The notes under the pieces: generated by a model
What the model was told of the DNA's origin: nothing
The model's input: only the letters and a program-made list of their open reading frames with translations
The model's database searches: none
In this document: in pieces, positions 18,796 to 26,630 of the stretch
How the letters are laid out: each line of letters begins with the position of its first letter
Numbering within the stretch: the stretch's first letter is position 1
Made by a program: the position numbers and the translations under genes
Assembly (NCBI RefSeq): GCF_051903065.1
Contig: NZ_CP178442.1
Strand: one strand, 5' to 3'
From: Escherichia coli
GTDB lineage: Bacteria > Pseudomonadota > Gammaproteobacteria > Enterobacterales > Enterobacteriaceae
Length of the DNA stretch: 37,672 nt

Positions 18796-19139
18796 AACAT
18801 TTAAAATATAAAGGATATTTAGGCACGGTTGAACCCGATTTTGAAAATAATGTCCTGTATGGAAAACTGGCGTTTATTCGGGACCTGGTAACTTATGAGG
18901 CTTCTACATTAGCTGAACTGGAACAGGAGTTTAAAACATCTGTTGATCTGTATTTACAGTCTTGTGTGGAGGATGGAAAGGAACCTGATACCCCGTTTAA
19001 AGGCGTGTTTAACGTCAGGCTTGATCCAGAACTGCATCGTCGGGTAGCAGAAATGGCGATGGAAGAAGATTTATCGTTGAATGCCTTTGTTAATAAGGCT
19101 CTGGAAAAAGAAGTCAGCAATCATCGCGCAGGGGCTTAA
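18792..19139 (+). CDS. hicB: HicB-family antitoxin with C-terminal RHH DNA-binding domain
   Basis: 115 aa; C-terminal segment GVFNVRLDPELHRRVAEMAMEEDLSLNAFVNKALEKEV is a typical RHH; genetic coupling with hicA. Confidence 0.7.
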   Translation: MKHLKYKGYLGTVEPDFENNVLYGKLAFIRDLVTYEASTLAELEQEFKTSVDLYLQSCVEDGKEPDTPFKGVFNVRLDPELHRRVAEMAMEEDLSLNAFVNKALEKEVSNHRAGA

Positions 19140-19397
19140 TTGCCCTTGTTTTTTTATGCCCTGTAAGGGCATGGGAGGCGCTTTGCGCCGGAAGCCCCGC
19201 AGCGCAGCGAGGACTTAAAAAGCGTTACGGCTTCAGCCGTAACAATTCCCAGCCCTGCCAGGCCTGTTTTTTCTTTCACAAATCTTTCAGCTATACGTTT
19301 GCCAGATGGTCGAAGACGAAAGAACCTTTCAGCAACGAAATCTGGACATATGCCGAGACGATTTTATAGCCATGCACAGTGTCACATATGGTACAAT

Positions 19398-19489
19398 CAA
19401 TGCAGGATAGACAATCATGGTCAAAATGTTAACATTTTATCCATGATTGTCCAAAAACGATGTTTTTGCCTGTGCCTGCCGCAGGCTCT
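19398..19489 (-). promoter_or_regulatory. 92-bp element, inverted copy of 10923..11014; candidate origin of transfer adjacent to the relaxase operon (nic motif TATCCTGC on bottom strand, 19402-19409)
   Basis: Exact reverse-complement identity to 10923-11014; lies 13 bp upstream of the taxA-like gene and is preceded by hairpins (gttacggc-ttca-gccgtaac at about 19216-19235). Confidence 0.55.
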
Positions 19490-19502
19490 GTTGGGGTGAG
19501 TT

Positions 19503-20006
19503 ATGAAGATGATAGCGTTCAGACTTAGTGATGATGAGTTAAAACTTGCAGAGCATAACGCTATATCAAGTGGGTTTACCAGCATCAATACATTTGCCAG
19601 GCATAATGTGCTTAATGTTGATGTTCAACCATCAAATATACCTGTCAGCAATGAATCATCAAAGGCTGTTAAAACCTGTTTATACCCTCATGAAATAGAA
19701 CTTGTTAAACGTAATGCTGCCCTTCACGGCATGAGCATGAGCAGAGAAATTGCTATTCGTGTGCGTCAGTCTTTGTTAAAAAATGAAGTCTGTCTTTACC
19801 CTGATGAAGTTAAGGAACTTAAAAAACTATCAACTGCTGTAGATCGTGTTGGTCGCAACATTCATTTTATCATAAAAGGTGAAAGATTCTGTACGGTTAA
19901 CGATCCTGATTTCAGAAAAGACGTTATTGAAGTGATTGAACTGTGTAAGCAAATTGATTCAAAACTTGAAACGTTAACCAAGAGTGTTGTTAACCGATTT
20001 GGGTGA
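19503..20006 (+). CDS. taxA: relaxosome accessory protein (TaxA-like), RHH-type DNA-binding
   Basis: 167 aa; N-terminal RHH-like MKMIAFRLSDDELKLAEHNAISSGF and a second similar segment; immediately upstream of relaxase gene. Confidence 0.6.
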   Translation: MKMIAFRLSDDELKLAEHNAISSGFTSINTFARHNVLNVDVQPSNIPVSNESSKAVKTCLYPHEIELVKRNAALHGMSMSREIAIRVRQSLLKNEVCLYPDEVKELKKLSTAVDRVGRNIHFIIKGERFCTVNDPDFRKDVIEVIELCKQIDSKLETLTKSVVNRFG

Positions 20007-21315: not shown

Positions 21316-21582
21316 ATGACTAAGCATGATGCTATACGCATTTCGCAACTTCATCAAATCTTTCCAGAGGTTCAGTTAACTGAACGACAGAAAGATATTG
21401 CAGTGATGTATGTAATTGGTTGCACAGTTGAGGAAATTGCGTCAGAAAAAGGGATCACGACCGATGGTGTTATGTATCATTTGAATCTGGTAAAAAGAGC
21501 CGTAGGTAGTGCAACTCTGGTAGGAGTGCGCACAACTGCGTTTCTTAGGATGATGGCAATCTTATTAACAAGGGAGTCATAA
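21316..21582 (+). CDS. actX: LuxR-type helix-turn-helix transcriptional regulator (ActX-like activator of transfer genes)
   Basis: 88 aa; LuxR C-terminal HTH signature LTERQKDIAVMYVIGCTVEEIASEKGITTDGVMYHLNLVKRA. Confidence 0.65.
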   Translation: MTKHDAIRISQLHQIFPEVQLTERQKDIAVMYVIGCTVEEIASEKGITTDGVMYHLNLVKRAVGSATLVGVRTTAFLRMMAILLTRES

Positions 21583-21586
21583 CATT

Positions 21587-21820
21587 ATGAGTTATATGAA
21601 AAAAACAAGAATTCTTTCGTTGGTTTTGTTCTCAATTGCATTGAGTGGTTGTGGTGAGGACATCAAGACCGTTGATTGGTGGCGAAATCATCCGGAGGAA
21701 GCGATCTCGAAGGTTGAAGAGTGTAAGAAGTCAGGCGACGTATCGGATAATTGTAAAAACGCCAAGACTGCGTTGTACAAGAATCAGCAACAAGATGCGC
21801 CTGTGCCTCAAATTAATTAA
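21587..21820 (+). CDS. small lipoprotein (77 aa), possible entry-exclusion or T4SS-associated lipoprotein
   Basis: Signal peptide with lipobox LSGC; Cys/Lys-rich mature part; located at head of the T4SS region. Confidence 0.5.
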   Translation: MSYMKKTRILSLVLFSIALSGCGEDIKTVDWWRNHPEEAISKVEECKKSGDVSDNCKNAKTALYKNQQQDAPVPQIN

Positions 21821-21996
21821 AAGATACAACCCAAGCAGGTGTTGATACTAAATTATAGCCGACCAGATGGTCGGTTTTTTTGTGTCCTCACATAAGAGTG
21901 TCCACTAAAGTTTCTGTAGTTGTGTAGTCTCTTTATTTTGATAATCCTATTTGCATCTAGAACGAATCTAAAACATGTCCATAGTGGATTGATTAA

Positions 21997-22173
21997 ATGA
22001 AGGAGAAACCAGATAAGTCATCGGAAAAAGGGGTTTATGTCACGATAAAACTCGATCCCAGGTTGAATGCATTTATCGAAGAGAAAACGAAAACATCTTT
22101 GCTTAGTAAGAGGAAGCAAATTATTTACTTATTAATGCAGAGTATGCGTATTGATGGATATATGGAGCGTTAG
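21997..22173 (+). CDS. small hypothetical protein (58 aa), possible RHH-type regulator; below ORF-track cutoff
   Basis: ATG 21997 with aatgaaggag RBS context; product MKEKPDKSSEKGVYVTIKLDPRLNAFIEEKTKTSLLSKRKQIIYLLMQSMRIDGYMER; ends 2 bp before the pilX1 ATG. Confidence 0.4.
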   Translation: MKEKPDKSSEKGVYVTIKLDPRLNAFIEEKTKTSLLSKRKQIIYLLMQSMRIDGYMER

Positions 22174-22175
22174 CT

Positions 22176-22796
22176 ATGGCGTCTTTATTCCCAGCCTTGT
22201 TGCTGTGTGCGGCGTCAGTTCATCCGGATACGATAAATGATATTGCACGGGTCGAGAGTGGCTTCAATCCTTATGCTGTGGCTGAAATTATTCCTGAAAG
22301 GGAACGCGGTAGCTATGGCAAAAGTGTTATCAGTCATATGCCCAAAAGTAAGGAGGAAGCTCTAACAGTTATCAGAGAAATTGAAAACAGAAAAAGACGT
22401 TATTCTGTCGGATTGATGCAGATTACCAGCAGTAATTTTTCTTTTTATTCCACGTCCGCAGAAAAACTCCTTGATCCGTGTGAAAACTTGTCTGTTTTCG
22501 AAAAGATTATCGTGGATTGTTATAAACGAGGGAGGAGCCTGGAGAATGCGCTTAGTTGTTACTATACAGGAAATTTTAGTAACGGTAAGCGAAAAGAAAA
22601 AGAATTTAATAATACAAGTTATGTTGAGCGAATTGGTTATACAGGGAACGAAAAAAAATATGTTGTACCAGGTACAAGAAGCAACGGGGGAGAACAGCGA
22701 AAAAATCGTTCACACAATGCGTCAGTTATCTGGCCCGAAACCATTCTGAAATCTGCTTTTGTTGATAACTCACATCCAACAAAAGTTATTAATTAA
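22176..22796 (+). CDS. pilX1: VirB1-like lytic transglycosylase
   Basis: SLT-domain motifs (ARVESGFNPYAV, YSVGLMQITSSN); first gene of T4SS cluster. Confidence 0.8.
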   Translation: MASLFPALLLCAASVHPDTINDIARVESGFNPYAVAEIIPERERGSYGKSVISHMPKSKEEALTVIREIENRKRRYSVGLMQITSSNFSFYSTSAEKLLDPCENLSVFEKIIVDCYKRGRSLENALSCYYTGNFSNGKRKEKEFNNTSYVERIGYTGNEKKYVVPGTRSNGGEQRKNRSHNASVIWPETILKSAFVDNSHPTKVIN

Positions 22797-25913: not shown

Positions 25914-26630
25914 ATGAAACGTGTAAAAACATTTATGCTGATATCATTATTGACGGCTTCATTTTATAGCAGCGCAGGTATTCCGGTTGCTGTAGATGCC
26001 AGTCCGGAATGGGCTGTTGAAGCCGCAAGATGGACAGAACGACTCAAACAATGGTCTGAAACTGCGCAACATTATCAGAGTCAGATTCAGGCATATAAAG
26101 ACCAGTTAGCAACGGCAACAGGTATAAGGAATATTGCGGCATTCACAAATGAACTAAGTAATCTGCAATCAGAACTGACAAATATTTATAAGCAGGGGAA
26201 CAGTTATATTTCTGATTTTACCAGTAATCCCGAAGGTGCATTAAGCAGTCAGGCAAAAAATCTGTTCAGCAAGTATGGAGCCTTCGATATGTGCACTACA
26301 GGCTATGAACGCAATGATAATCTCTGTAAAGCACGGATTGTGTCAAAGGCTGCCAGTATTGAACAGGGAAATGAGATAAATAAGCAGTTATCAAGTGCAA
26401 TGTCTCAGATTCAGAGTTTAAGTACTCGAATTGAGGCTTCAAAGGATATGAAAGAATCCCAGGATTTGGCTAACGCATTACAGGCACAGTCGTTAAAAAT
26501 GCAGGCGATAAAAATGCAGTATGATGTCTGGAATAGTAAAAATCAGGCTGACACGGAGATGTTGAAAGAACAACAAAGGGCTGAATATAAGCAACAACAG
26601 ATGAACGCACCAATACCTACGATTCAATGA
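25914..26630 (+). CDS. pilX5: VirB5-like minor pilus subunit
   Basis: 238 aa, signal peptide, helical Gln/Ala-rich protein in the VirB5 position. Confidence 0.7.
   Translation: MKRVKTFMLISLLTASFYSSAGIPVAVDASPEWAVEAARWTERLKQWSETAQHYQSQIQAYKDQLATATGIRNIAAFTNELSNLQSELTNIYKQGNSYISDFTSNPEGALSSQAKNLFSKYGAFDMCTTGYERNDNLCKARIVSKAASIEQGNEINKQLSSAMSQIQSLSTRIEASKDMKESQDLANALQAQSLKMQAIKMQYDVWNSKNQADTEMLKEQQRAEYKQQQMNAPIPTIQ

What the first reader, a model, noticed from the sequence alone, without database searches (positions are those of the whole stretch)
21997..22173. Unannotated 58-aa ORF immediately upstream of the T4SS operon
A small ORF with good RBS context ends 2 bp before the pilX1 start; it has a beta-strand-then-helix pattern (VYVTIKLDPRLNAFIEEK) compatible with a small RHH/Arc-like regulator. 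It was missed by the ORF track only because of the size cutoff. It could be a repressor or activator of pilus gene expression acting with the LuxR-type regulator.
Basis: seen in the sequence. Interest (0 to 1): 0.35.

Follow-up and report, generated by a model that had tools for sequence, protein, structure and literature searches.

The report
Small DNA-binding gene heading conjugation operon
The 58-codon reading frame just before the mating-pore genes of this IncX4 resistance plasmid is a real, conserved gene for a small ribbon-helix-helix DNA-binding protein, already listed in the literature as the uncharacterised "cds9", and it most likely acts as a feedback brake on the conjugation operon that it heads.

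Summary
The ORF is real at 21997-22173 (+), 58 aa, with its stop 2 nt before pilX1. The window is a complete cfr-carrying IncX4 plasmid (pSD11 type).

It is not truly unannotated. RefSeq calls it WP_000660496.1, a hypothetical protein. It is also "cds9" of pHNSHP23 (Yi et al. 2022), the first gene of the PixR-activated pilX operon, and its function was never determined.

New here:
- It belongs to a rare family: 13 representatives among 1.8 billion proteins.
- Every member with genomic context sits directly 5' of the VirB1-like gene of a T4SS operon, usually with a PixR-like regulator nearby.
- It is under purifying selection (dN/dS 0.10 in one clean pair).
- Pfam TraY hits recur across members but stay below threshold.
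- AATC/GATT boxes spaced at multiples of 11 bp lie between the promoter -10 region and the start codon in five independent lineages. They are a candidate operator.

The best reading is an autorepressor that limits PixR-driven T4SS expression. This is inferred, not shown. A TraY-like positive or accessory role is the main rival. Interest is modest.

The parts
21997..22173 (+). 58-aa RHH-family ORF, stop codon included. It is cds9 of pHNSHP23 and RefSeq WP_000660496.1.
   Evidence: The identity with cds9 rests on coordinates: in the 33,309-bp pHNSHP10 the ORF start is at 26296 on the minus strand, and 26296 + 42 = 26338, the published TSS.
22033..22053 (+). Codons 13-19 (VYVTIKL), the predicted beta-strand that pairs with its twin to form the DNA-reading ribbon. 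Y14, T16 and K18 probably face the DNA.
   Evidence: Strands E13-19 and E83-89 are the only two strands in the linked-dimer model. T16 and L19 are nearly invariant in the family. Which side chains face DNA is inferred from general RHH knowledge.
22057..22158 (+). Codons 21-54: helix A, a loop with the conserved S37-K38 N-cap, and helix B.
   Evidence: Helices 21-33 and 38-54 in the monomer model. N24, K38 and M50 are invariant in the 18-sequence alignment.
21940..21955 (+). PpilX core: the -10-like hexamer GATAAT (21940-21945) and the transcription start at 21955, 42 nt before the ATG.
   Evidence: The TSS comes from Cappable-seq in Yi et al. 2022, mapped onto the window by its offset from the ATG. 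The -10 assignment is my reading. The consensus scan finds no sigma-70 promoter here, as expected for an activator-dependent promoter.
21943..21994 (.). Candidate operator: an array of tetramer boxes. They are AATC 21943, degenerate CATC 21954 (at the TSS), AATC 21965, GATT 21987 and GATT 21991. Boxes 21943, 21954, 21965 and 21987 are spaced at multiples of 11 bp.
   Evidence: This is statistical evidence only; no binding has been shown.
22164..22178 (+). The pilX1 Shine-Dalgarno GGAG (22164-22167) lies inside the 3' end of the ORF, followed by stop TAG, 2 nt, and the pilX1 ATG (22176). This arrangement suggests translational coupling. It also explains why deleting the ORF is polar.
   Evidence: Stop/start overlap or very small gaps recur in homologous loci.
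22176..22796 (+). pilX1, a VirB1-like lytic transglycosylase and second gene of the operon.
   Evidence: Pfam SLT, E 2.4e-12; annotation.
21316..21582 (+). PixR-like LuxR/sigma-70 region 4 type regulator (88 aa). It is a variant allele, 47% identical to canonical PixR.
21587..21820 (+). EexN-family entry-exclusion lipoprotein.
   Evidence: Annotation.
21857..21883 (+). Intrinsic-terminator-like hairpin plus T-run. It ends the taxA-taxC-pixR-eex transcription unit and separates it from PpilX.

Best explanation
The ORF encodes a genuine 58-aa ribbon-helix-helix (RHH) DNA-binding protein. It is the first cistron of the PixR-activated pilX (T4SS) operon and is probably translationally coupled to pilX1.

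Proposed mechanism:
1. PixR switches on PpilX.
2. The first product made is this RHH protein, which dimerises through its N-terminal strand (residues 13-19).
3. Dimers bind cooperatively, on one face of the DNA helix, to AATC/GATT boxes that overlap the -10 region, the transcription start and the leader (21943-21994).
4. Binding turns the promoter back down.

The result is negative feedback that limits how long and how strongly the costly T4SS is expressed.

Shown here or in the literature:
- The ORF, its conservation and purifying selection.
- Its fixed position at the head of T4SS operons.
- The predicted RHH dimer fold.
- Transcription from a PixR-dependent TSS 42 nt upstream.
- Enrichment and 11-bp phasing of the boxes.

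Inferred:
- That the protein binds DNA.
- That the boxes are its operator.
- That the effect is repression.
For: Real gene:
- It is intact in about 445 IncX4 records.
- The family comprises 13 representatives at E<=1e-3 among 1.84 billion proteins, extended to 18 distinct sequences.
- dN/dS is 0.10 for L005 vs L019, with 14 of 25 differences at third codon positions.
- For more distant pairs the synonymous sites are saturated while the proteins stay 31-56% identical.

Fixed position:
- All loci with context place it directly 5' of the SLT/VirB1 gene, followed by VirB2 and VirB3-4.

Fold:
- Monomer model pLDDT 77.6. Linked-dimer model pTM 0.66 with core pLDDT 75-90.
- The monomer's top Foldseek hits are also RHH proteins, though not significant.
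- Pfam TraY is hit by 7 of 10 members (E 0.002-0.1), always starting at profile position 1-2 on the strand. One member also hits RHH_5.

Operon and promoter:
- Yi et al. 2022 place the TSS 42 bp upstream of cds9, show cds9 to trbM as one transcript, and report cds9 up 13-fold on PixR overexpression.

Operator candidate:
- AATC/GATT is the most enriched of all 136 tetramer classes in the 55 nt before the start codon of 8 non-redundant loci. Observed 17, against 5.3 in mononucleotide shuffles (0 of 2000 reached 17) and 7.8 in dinucleotide shuffles (10 of 20000).
- 8 of 10 adjacent box spacings are 11 or 22 bp. Random placement reached this in 0 of 200000 trials for period 11, and in 1.6e-4 of trials for any period from 5 to 16.
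- The boxes are kept between sister loci while the flanking bases change.
- In the window, the pixR-eex-promoter cassette is a divergent allele, yet the -10-to-ATG segment and the ORF stay conserved.

The authors themselves posit an unknown factor that keeps PixR or pilX quiet outside mating.
Against: - No experiment shows DNA binding or repression.
- The published cds9 deletion abolished transfer rather than raising it. It was not complemented in trans, and the authors attribute this to polarity. That is plausible, because the pilX1 RBS lies inside the ORF, but it leaves the sign of regulation open.
- The box statistics were computed after I had noticed the motif by eye. A four-base motif is short, and after correcting for 136 classes the dinucleotide-shuffle P value is only borderline.
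- Boxes close to the ATG may partly reflect GGA-type Shine-Dalgarno sequences.
- Three of the eight loci have one box or none, and L018 has lost one box.
- AATC is also the core of this plasmid's 22-bp iterons and of a five-box array at the replication origin, so another protein such as the Rep/Pir initiator could read it here.
- A PixR-like protein co-occurs in nearly all loci and could be the binder instead.
Confidence: 0.5

Rival explanations
1. TraY-like positive or accessory factor. The RHH protein binds DNA at PpilX and/or elsewhere (oriT, the origin) and is needed for transfer. It would either help PixR activate the operon or act as a DNA-processing accessory, as F TraY does. In F, TraY is the first gene of the TraJ-activated tra operon.
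For: - Recurrent sub-threshold Pfam TraY hits, and one database source names a family member 'conjugal transfer protein TraY'.
- The circuit layout matches F: an activator (TraJ or PixR) drives a promoter whose first gene is an RHH protein.
- Tn-seq scored cds9 as essential for transfer, and its deletion abolished transfer.
Against: - The essentiality is most simply explained by polarity, and expression in trans did not rescue the deletion.
- The plasmid already has a relaxase accessory protein, TaxA/Ddp1, with NikA-like and Arc-like RHH segments next to taxC.
- No phased AATC array is found in the region upstream of taxA (19130-19510), which I take to be the oriT side, or at the pixR promoter.
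- The boxes sit over the -10 region, the TSS and the leader, which is a repressor position rather than an activator position.
- The TraY Pfam scores (13-18 bits) stay below the 21.3-bit cut-off.
Confidence: 0.22
2. Protein-protein modulator. The small protein binds PixR as an anti-activator (as Ti-plasmid TraM does with TraR) or binds a T4SS component, rather than DNA.
For: - It co-occurs with PixR-like regulators in 6 of 7 lineages that have upstream context.
- The authors suggest PixR may be 'inactive or sequestered' outside mating.
Against: - The fold is a canonical DNA-binding RHH. The strand has conserved polar residues at alternate positions, and the basic S-K-R N-cap of helix B is conserved.
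- The ORF stays nearly identical while PixR is swapped for an allele only 47% identical. That argues against a tight co-evolving protein-protein interface.
Confidence: 0.06
3. No function of its own. The frame is only a leader ORF whose translation delivers ribosomes to pilX1, or it is a chance ORF.
For: The stop lies 2 nt before the pilX1 ATG and the pilX1 SD is inside the ORF. The protein is small, has no significant Pfam hit itself, and is often left unannotated.
Against: - dN/dS is 0.10, equal to that of the neighbouring enzyme gene.
- The sequence family is conserved, with invariant N24, K38 and M50, across loci whose DNA no longer aligns.
- The fold prediction is confident.
- In three lineages (L006, L020, L008) the gene lies 106-152 nt from virB1, so coupling cannot be its only purpose.
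Confidence: 0.04
4. An orphan RHH antitoxin of a type II toxin-antitoxin pair.
For: There are weak NCBIfam hits to MazE and VapB antitoxin models (E about 0.05). ParD, MazE and CopG antitoxins appear among the structural neighbours.
Against: In every locus the downstream gene is the VirB1-like transglycosylase, not a toxin. The protein lacks the C-terminal toxin-binding extension. The plasmid's own TA pairs (HicAB, RelE/ParE) lie elsewhere.
Confidence: 0.02

Closest known systems
cds9 of IncX4 plasmid pHNSHP23 (Yi et al. 2022, mBio 13:e03209-21; PMC8725589)
   Same: It is the same gene, with 98-100% identical protein. It is the first gene of the PixR-activated pilX operon, the TSS is 42 bp upstream, and it was scored as essential in Tn-seq.
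   Different: The paper left it as a gene of unknown function, attributed its phenotype to polarity, and proposed no fold, family or operator. The window carries a different PixR allele and a different promoter upstream of the same ORF.
TraY of F-like plasmids (Pfam PF05509; PDB 9f0x chain E)
   Different: F TraY is a single chain with two fused RHH repeats, whereas this protein has one repeat and must dimerise. Pfam scores are below the cut-off. TraY belongs to MPF_F/MOB_F plasmids and doubles as a relaxosome protein at oriT. Here the T4SS is MPF_T/MOB_P, and a separate accessory protein, TaxA, is present.
Arc, Mnt and CopG type RHH repressors
   Different: There is no detectable sequence similarity: PDB sequence searches found nothing relevant. 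The usual glycine in the inter-helix turn is absent, replaced by a conserved (R/L)-S-K-R.
ParG (TP228) and omega (pSM19035) RHH proteins
   Same: From my own knowledge, these RHH dimers bind arrays of short repeats (4-bp boxes or 7-bp heptads) that can be direct or inverted. That resembles the variable orientation of the AATC/GATT boxes seen here.
   Different: The repeat period differs: about 8 bp and 7 bp in those systems, against 11 bp here. They regulate partition and copy number, not a T4SS operon. No homology was tested.
KorA of IncN/IncW plasmids (R46/pKM101, R388)
   Same: A small repressor gene embedded at the head of an MPF_T T4SS operon, next to the VirB1 homologue. It is functionally analogous as a feedback design.
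   Different: It is not homologous: hhalign probability 0.2% and no Pfam RHH signal. It lies after VirB1, not before it.
ArtA of pSK41 (PDB 3gxq)
   Different: It is from a Gram-positive plasmid with an unrelated sequence, and the match covers only one monomer.

Membership tests
Ribbon-helix-helix (RHH / MetJ-Arc) superfamily | An N-terminal beta-strand followed by two alpha-helices within about 45 residues. | tested here: met
   The AF2 monomer shows an extended segment 12-20, then helices 21-33 and 38-54. The dimer model shows E13-19, H21-30 and H38-53 in both copies.
Ribbon-helix-helix (RHH / MetJ-Arc) superfamily | A homodimer in which the two strands pair into an antiparallel ribbon. | tested here: met
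Ribbon-helix-helix (RHH / MetJ-Arc) superfamily | A strand with alternating hydrophobic and polar residues, and a conserved N-cap (G-x-S/T/N) at helix B that contacts the DNA phosphate backbone. | tested here: inconclusive
   The strand consensus is (Y/H)-(V/I/L)-T-(I/V)-(K/R/Q)-L, with T16 and L19 nearly invariant. S37 and K38 at the start of helix B are conserved, but the glycine is absent.
Ribbon-helix-helix (RHH / MetJ-Arc) superfamily | Sequence-specific DNA binding. | not testable with these tools
   Only indirect evidence exists: phased AATC/GATT boxes next to the gene.
TraY (Pfam PF05509) | A score at or above the Pfam gathering threshold of 21.3 bits. | tested here: not met
   The window protein has no TraY hit. 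Seven of ten relatives score 13.2-18.4 bits (E 0.002-0.1), all below the cut-off.
TraY (Pfam PF05509) | First gene of an activator-dependent transfer operon. | tested here: met
   This is position and transcription only.
TraY (Pfam PF05509) | Binds oriT and acts as a relaxosome accessory factor. | not testable with these tools
   No phased box array is present in the presumed oriT-side region 19130-19510. TaxA/Ddp1 already fills this role by annotation.
PixR regulon gene cds9 (IncX4) | The same gene, directly between eex and pilX1, with the TSS 42 bp upstream. | tested here: met
   98.3% protein identity to the ORF of pHNSHP10-type plasmids. The coordinate arithmetic 26296 + 42 = 26338 matches the published TSS. 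The pHNSHP23 record itself was not retrieved.
KorA (IncN/IncW T4SS repressor) | Sequence homology to KorA. | tested here: not met
   hhalign of the family alignment against R46 KorA gives probability 0.2%.
Type II antitoxin (RHH class) | An adjacent cognate toxin gene. | tested here: not met
   In all loci the downstream gene is an SLT/VirB1 gene.

The most novel reading that the evidence does not exclude
This protein founds a previously undescribed RHH family that is the missing brake of the PixR circuit. A small PixR-type activator and a small RHH autorepressor would together form a conserved two-part switch for T4SS expression, found in IncX4/IncX7 and in several other small MPF_T plasmids with different replicons. 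The RHH would read AATC boxes spaced 11 bp apart. A more speculative extension is that the same boxes at the replication origin (12761-12805) let it couple conjugation to replication.
Probability: 0.4. Interest if true: 0.55.

Novelty: new member of a known kind. Interest (0 to 1): 0.4.

Why it matters
IncX4 plasmids are among the main vehicles of mcr-1 (colistin resistance) worldwide, and this one carries cfr. Their spread depends on PixR-driven bursts of T4SS expression. The published work states that something unknown keeps the system quiet outside mating.

A feedback repressor encoded as the first gene of the operon would supply that missing element. It would explain transient expression and suggest a way to shut conjugation down.

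The result also shows that a gene missing from most RefSeq records of these plasmids is a conserved regulator candidate. It gives a concrete, cheap experiment: a non-polar mutant, EMSA on a 60-bp fragment, and box mutations.

If the protein proves to be only another small autorepressor, the finding is useful but ordinary.

Tried and rejected
- Direct sequence searches of the protein and of family profiles against PDB sequences found nothing relevant.
- Pfam gave no meaningful hit for the window protein itself. NCBIfam gave only marginal antitoxin hits.
- The word-indexed homology search with the single sequence found only near-identical IncX4 copies. Distant relatives appeared only through tblastn on plasmids and the exhaustive profile search.
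- KorA of IncN was tested as a possible homologue and rejected.
- An unbiased k-mer motif search on the upstream regions was swamped by A/T runs and gave nothing usable. One input sequence was also lost to a naming clash.
- The generic repeat finder reported only weak repeats around the promoter.
- Rfam search and RNA folding of the leader gave no RNA element. The leader is less structured than shuffled controls, z = +1.56.
- dN/dS between distant family members could not be computed because synonymous sites are saturated. The closest pair, window vs L018, has too few differences to be informative (9 nt, ratio 0.46).
- Literature searches for the protein accession and for an RHH protein upstream of virB1 found no functional study.
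- The antitoxin and pure leader-ORF readings were considered and rejected on synteny and selection.

Full report
**What the window is.** The 37,672-bp window is a complete circular IncX4 plasmid. Over the region tested it is identical to pSD11 (NZ_KM212169.1) and to two other 37,672-bp records. It carries cfr between two IS26 copies, an H-NS/Hha/TopB backbone, HicAB and RelE/ParE toxin-antitoxin pairs, and the taxA(ddp1)-taxC relaxase module. The T4SS block runs pilX1-11, taxB, trbM.

**Checking the observation.**
- The ORF lies at 21997-22173 (+), starts with ATG and encodes 58 aa. It ends in TAG 2 nt before the ATG of the VirB1-like pilX1 at 22176.
- An in-frame TAA directly precedes the ATG, so the start is fixed.
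- The 'good RBS' is only partly right. The perfect AAGGAG is at codons 2-3, inside the ORF. Upstream there is only a weak GGA about 9 nt from the ATG. The leader is A/U-rich and less structured than shuffled controls.
- The Shine-Dalgarno of pilX1 (GGAG, 22164-22167) lies inside the ORF's 3' end.
- The ORF is not strictly unannotated. RefSeq lists it in this plasmid type as WP_000660496.1, 'hypothetical protein'. Most of the 33-kb mcr-1 IncX4 records listed have no feature there.

**It is already in the literature, without a function.** Yi et al. 2022 (PMC8725589) studied the IncX4 plasmid pHNSHP23. They report the following:
- The small LuxR-like regulator downstream of taxC, PixR, activates a single promoter, PpilX.
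- Cappable-seq placed the TSS at 26,338, 'exactly 42 bp upstream of cds9'.
- cds9, pilX1-11, taxB and trbM form one transcript.
- cds9 rose 13-fold on PixR overexpression and scored as essential for transfer in Tn-seq.
- Its deletion abolished transfer, but pBAD-cds9 or a clone with the native promoter could not rescue it. The authors attributed this to polarity and dropped the gene.

In the 33,309-bp sister plasmid pHNSHP10 the ORF starts at 26296 on the minus strand, and 26296 + 42 = 26338. So cds9 is this ORF. I did not retrieve the pHNSHP23 record itself. In window coordinates the TSS is 21955.

No later paper assigns a function. The polarity explanation is credible, because removing the ORF also removes the pilX1 ribosome-binding site.

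**Is it a real gene?**
- About 445 IncX4 records encode it full length at 95% or higher identity. A few assemblies carry truncated or frameshifted copies.
- tblastn found a 37%-identical, unannotated 61-codon ORF in a second plasmid group (for example NZ_CP080143.1). It overlaps the start of that group's VirB1 gene.
- An exhaustive profile search of 1.84 billion representative proteins returned only 13 hits at E<=1e-3, so the family is rare. A further profile search raised the set to 18 distinct sequences of 54-77 aa.
- Every member whose contig I could read sits directly upstream of an SLT/VirB1 gene, followed by VirB2 and VirB3/4. These plasmids use Pir-like, Rep_3 or TrfA replication proteins.
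- For the pair L005/L019, dN is 0.087 and dS 0.833, a ratio of 0.10, with 14 of 25 differences at third positions. The adjacent pilX1 gene gives 0.076.
- For more distant pairs, synonymous sites are saturated while the proteins remain 31-56% identical.
- The intergenic DNA upstream is far less conserved than the ORF.

**Fold.**
- The family core reads x-(Y/H)-(V/I/L)-T-(I/V)-(K/R/Q)-L-x-P-x-L-N-x-F-I-E-x-E-A-K-K-x-x-R-S-K-R-x-Q-x-L-x-M-L-x-x-x-M. N24, K38 and M50 are invariant.
- AlphaFold2 with the 18-sequence alignment gives an extended segment 12-20 and helices 21-33 and 38-54, with mean pLDDT 77.6.
- RHH proteins fold only as dimers, so I also modelled two copies joined by a 12-residue Gly-Ser linker, using an alignment built the same way. 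Residues 13-19 of both copies become the only two beta-strands. pTM is 0.66 and core pLDDT 75-90.
- The top Foldseek hits of the monomer are also RHH proteins (Reg576, ParD, PrpA), although the E-values are not significant for so small a query.
- Seven of ten relatives hit the Pfam TraY domain at E 0.002-0.1, each starting at profile position 1-2 on the strand. One also hits RHH_5 across 38 of 43 positions. None reaches the curated cut-off.
- One source even labels a Salmonella member 'conjugal transfer protein TraY'.
- My conclusion is an RHH fold with high confidence. Membership of the TraY family is not established.

**Genomic partners.** In 6 of 7 lineages with upstream context there is also a small (86-97 aa) Sigma70_r4_2/GerE-type protein that aligns with PixR. 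Usually a 71-77 aa Eex-like lipoprotein is present too. PixR-like activator, RHH gene and T4SS operon therefore travel together.

In the window the PixR gene is a variant allele, 47% identical to canonical PixR. It matches in identity the 'PixR-like' types that Yi et al. describe as 46% identical. Alignment with pHNSHP10 shows a mosaic:
- taxC and the first roughly 90 nt of pixR are near-identical.
- The rest of pixR, eex and the upstream half of the promoter have diverged to about 50% identity.
- The segment from -10 to the ATG is about 80% identical.
- The ORF differs by one nucleotide.

**A candidate operator.** Reading the leaders of the different lineages, I noticed AATC or GATT tetramers recurring between the -10 region and the start codon.
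- A scan of all 136 reverse-complement tetramer classes in the 55 nt upstream of eight non-redundant loci ranks AATC/GATT first. Observed 17, expected 5.3, and 0 of 2000 mononucleotide shuffles reached 17.
- Dinucleotide-preserving shuffles give a mean of 7.8, and 10 of 20,000 reach 17. Locus-wide frequency and the -165..-56 control region predict about 5.
- Positions relative to the ATG are: window -54, -32, -10, -6, plus a degenerate CATC at -43, which is the TSS. L005: -44, -33, -11. L004: -27, -16, -5. L006: -15, -4. L012: -46, -35, -29.
- Eight of ten adjacent spacings are 11 or 22 bp. No other period from 5 to 16 scores more than 1.
- Random placement reaches 8 in 0 of 200,000 trials for period 11, and in 1.6e-4 of trials when any period is allowed.
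- Orientation varies: direct in the window and L006, inverted (AATC-N7-GATT or GATT-N7-AATC) in L004, L005 and L012. From my own knowledge, ParG and omega operators show the same kind of variability.
- Sister loci keep the boxes while neighbouring bases change.
- In the window the boxes cover the -10 region (21943), the TSS (21954), +11 (21965) and +33/+37 (21987, 21991). That is where a repressor would sit.

Caveats on the operator:
- The test was designed after I had seen the motif.
- The motif is short.
- Boxes near the ATG may partly be GGA-type ribosome-binding sequences.
- Three of the eight loci have one box or none, and L018 has lost one box.
- In this plasmid the same tetramer is the core of the 22-bp iterons (cataAATCtgtccc) and of a five-box, 11-bp-phased array beside the DnaA boxes at the origin. 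These three sites are the only chains of three or more phased boxes in the plasmid (3 observed, 0.26 expected).
- A PixR-like protein could also be the binder. However, separate palindromes further upstream look like better activator sites. One is AGGTTGCA-N4-TGCAACCT in L004/L006/L020/L022. The other is ATCATAA-N3-TTATGAT in L005, which changes symmetrically to ACCATAA-N3-TTATGGT in L019.

**Mechanism.** The best-supported reading (about 0.5) runs as follows:
1. PixR fires PpilX.
2. The first protein made is this RHH.
3. RHH dimers line up on one face of the DNA over the promoter and leader and turn PpilX down.
4. This gives a self-limiting pulse of T4SS expression.

It fits the authors' remark that an unknown factor keeps the system quiet outside mating. 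It also fits the general habit of RHH genes placed first in their own operon.

The main rival (about 0.2) is a TraY-like positive or accessory role. It is favoured by the TraY resemblance, by the parallel with the F circuit, where TraJ drives PY and traY is the first gene, and by the transfer-null phenotype. It is weakened by four points: likely polarity, the presence of TaxA, the absence of boxes on the oriT side, and the repressor-like position of the boxes.

Three minor rivals are each unlikely:
- An anti-activator acting on PixR.
- A mere coupling leader ORF.
- An antitoxin.

**Comparison with known systems.** Functionally the design recalls KorA of IncN/IncW plasmids, a small repressor gene embedded next to VirB1. 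The proteins are unrelated, however. Structurally the closest matches are Arc and TraY. By sequence the protein belongs to no curated family.

**Verdict.**
- The fold guess is supported.
- The gene is already known as cds9 and is annotated in some records.
- Its regulatory role remains an inference, now with a specific, testable operator.

It is a new member of a known kind, an RHH regulator of a conjugation operon, and of modest interest.

Noticed in passing
window 21330-21975, compared with L015 (pHNSHP10): Allelic cassette replacement. Most of pixR, all of eex and the upstream half of PpilX are only about 50% identical to the canonical mcr-1 IncX4 type (PixR 47% aa identity). The flanking taxC and the RHH ORF/pilX1 are near-identical. 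A third combination exists in pUA1138, which has a window-like PixR with a canonical-type leader.
   Followed up: partly
window 12761-12960: Replication-origin region upstream of the rep (pir-like) gene. It holds five AATC/GATT boxes spaced exactly 11 bp apart (12761-12805), then two inverted DnaA-box-like TTATCCACA sites, then 22-bp iterons cataAATCtgtccc. Together with PpilX these are the only phased AATC chains in the plasmid (3 observed, 0.26 expected). The binder of the 11-bp array is unknown.
   Followed up: partly
L004 about 2883-2902, with equivalents in L006, L020 and L022: A perfect 20-bp palindrome, AGGTTGCA-N4-TGCAACCT, is conserved upstream of the -10 region of the RHH/T4SS promoter in a second plasmid group. 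The surrounding DNA is otherwise diverged. It looks like a lux-box-type site for the PixR-like regulator.
   Followed up: no
L005 about 2490-2506 vs the equivalent in L019: The inverted repeat ATCATAA-TTT-TTATGAT changes to ACCATAA-ATT-TTATGGT. This is a symmetric, compensatory change that preserves the palindrome, which I place near -41. It is probably the binding site of a dimeric activator.
   Followed up: no
window 19503-20006 (taxA/ddp1): The 167-aa relaxase accessory protein shows two RHH-like segments: NikA-like at residues 2-42 and Arc-like at residues 66-94. The plasmid therefore encodes at least two different RHH proteins in its transfer region.
   Followed up: no
window 3649-6736: cfr (a 23S rRNA methyltransferase gene conferring multidrug resistance) is flanked by two IS26 copies, according to the RefSeq annotation of the identical record. 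This is the plasmid's resistance cargo.
   Followed up: no
PLSDB/RefSeq records of IncX4 plasmids: Annotation is inconsistent. The same 58-codon gene is annotated as a hypothetical protein in some records and missing in most of the 33-kb mcr-1 IncX4 records listed. The homologue in the second plasmid group is also unannotated, because it overlaps virB1.
   Followed up: yes
window 21857-21883: A strong terminator-like hairpin (AGCCGACCAGATGGTCGGTT followed by a T-run) after eex insulates PpilX from the taxA-taxC-pixR-eex transcript. Its complement also scores as a terminator on the minus strand.
   Followed up: no
plasmid records NZ_CP008717.1, NZ_AP027561.1 (4237 bp) and NZ_CP128969.1 (2307 bp): PixR-like proteins (40-58% identical over part of their length) are also encoded on very small, non-conjugative plasmids. 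These might tap into the transfer regulation of IncX4-type plasmids.
   Followed up: no
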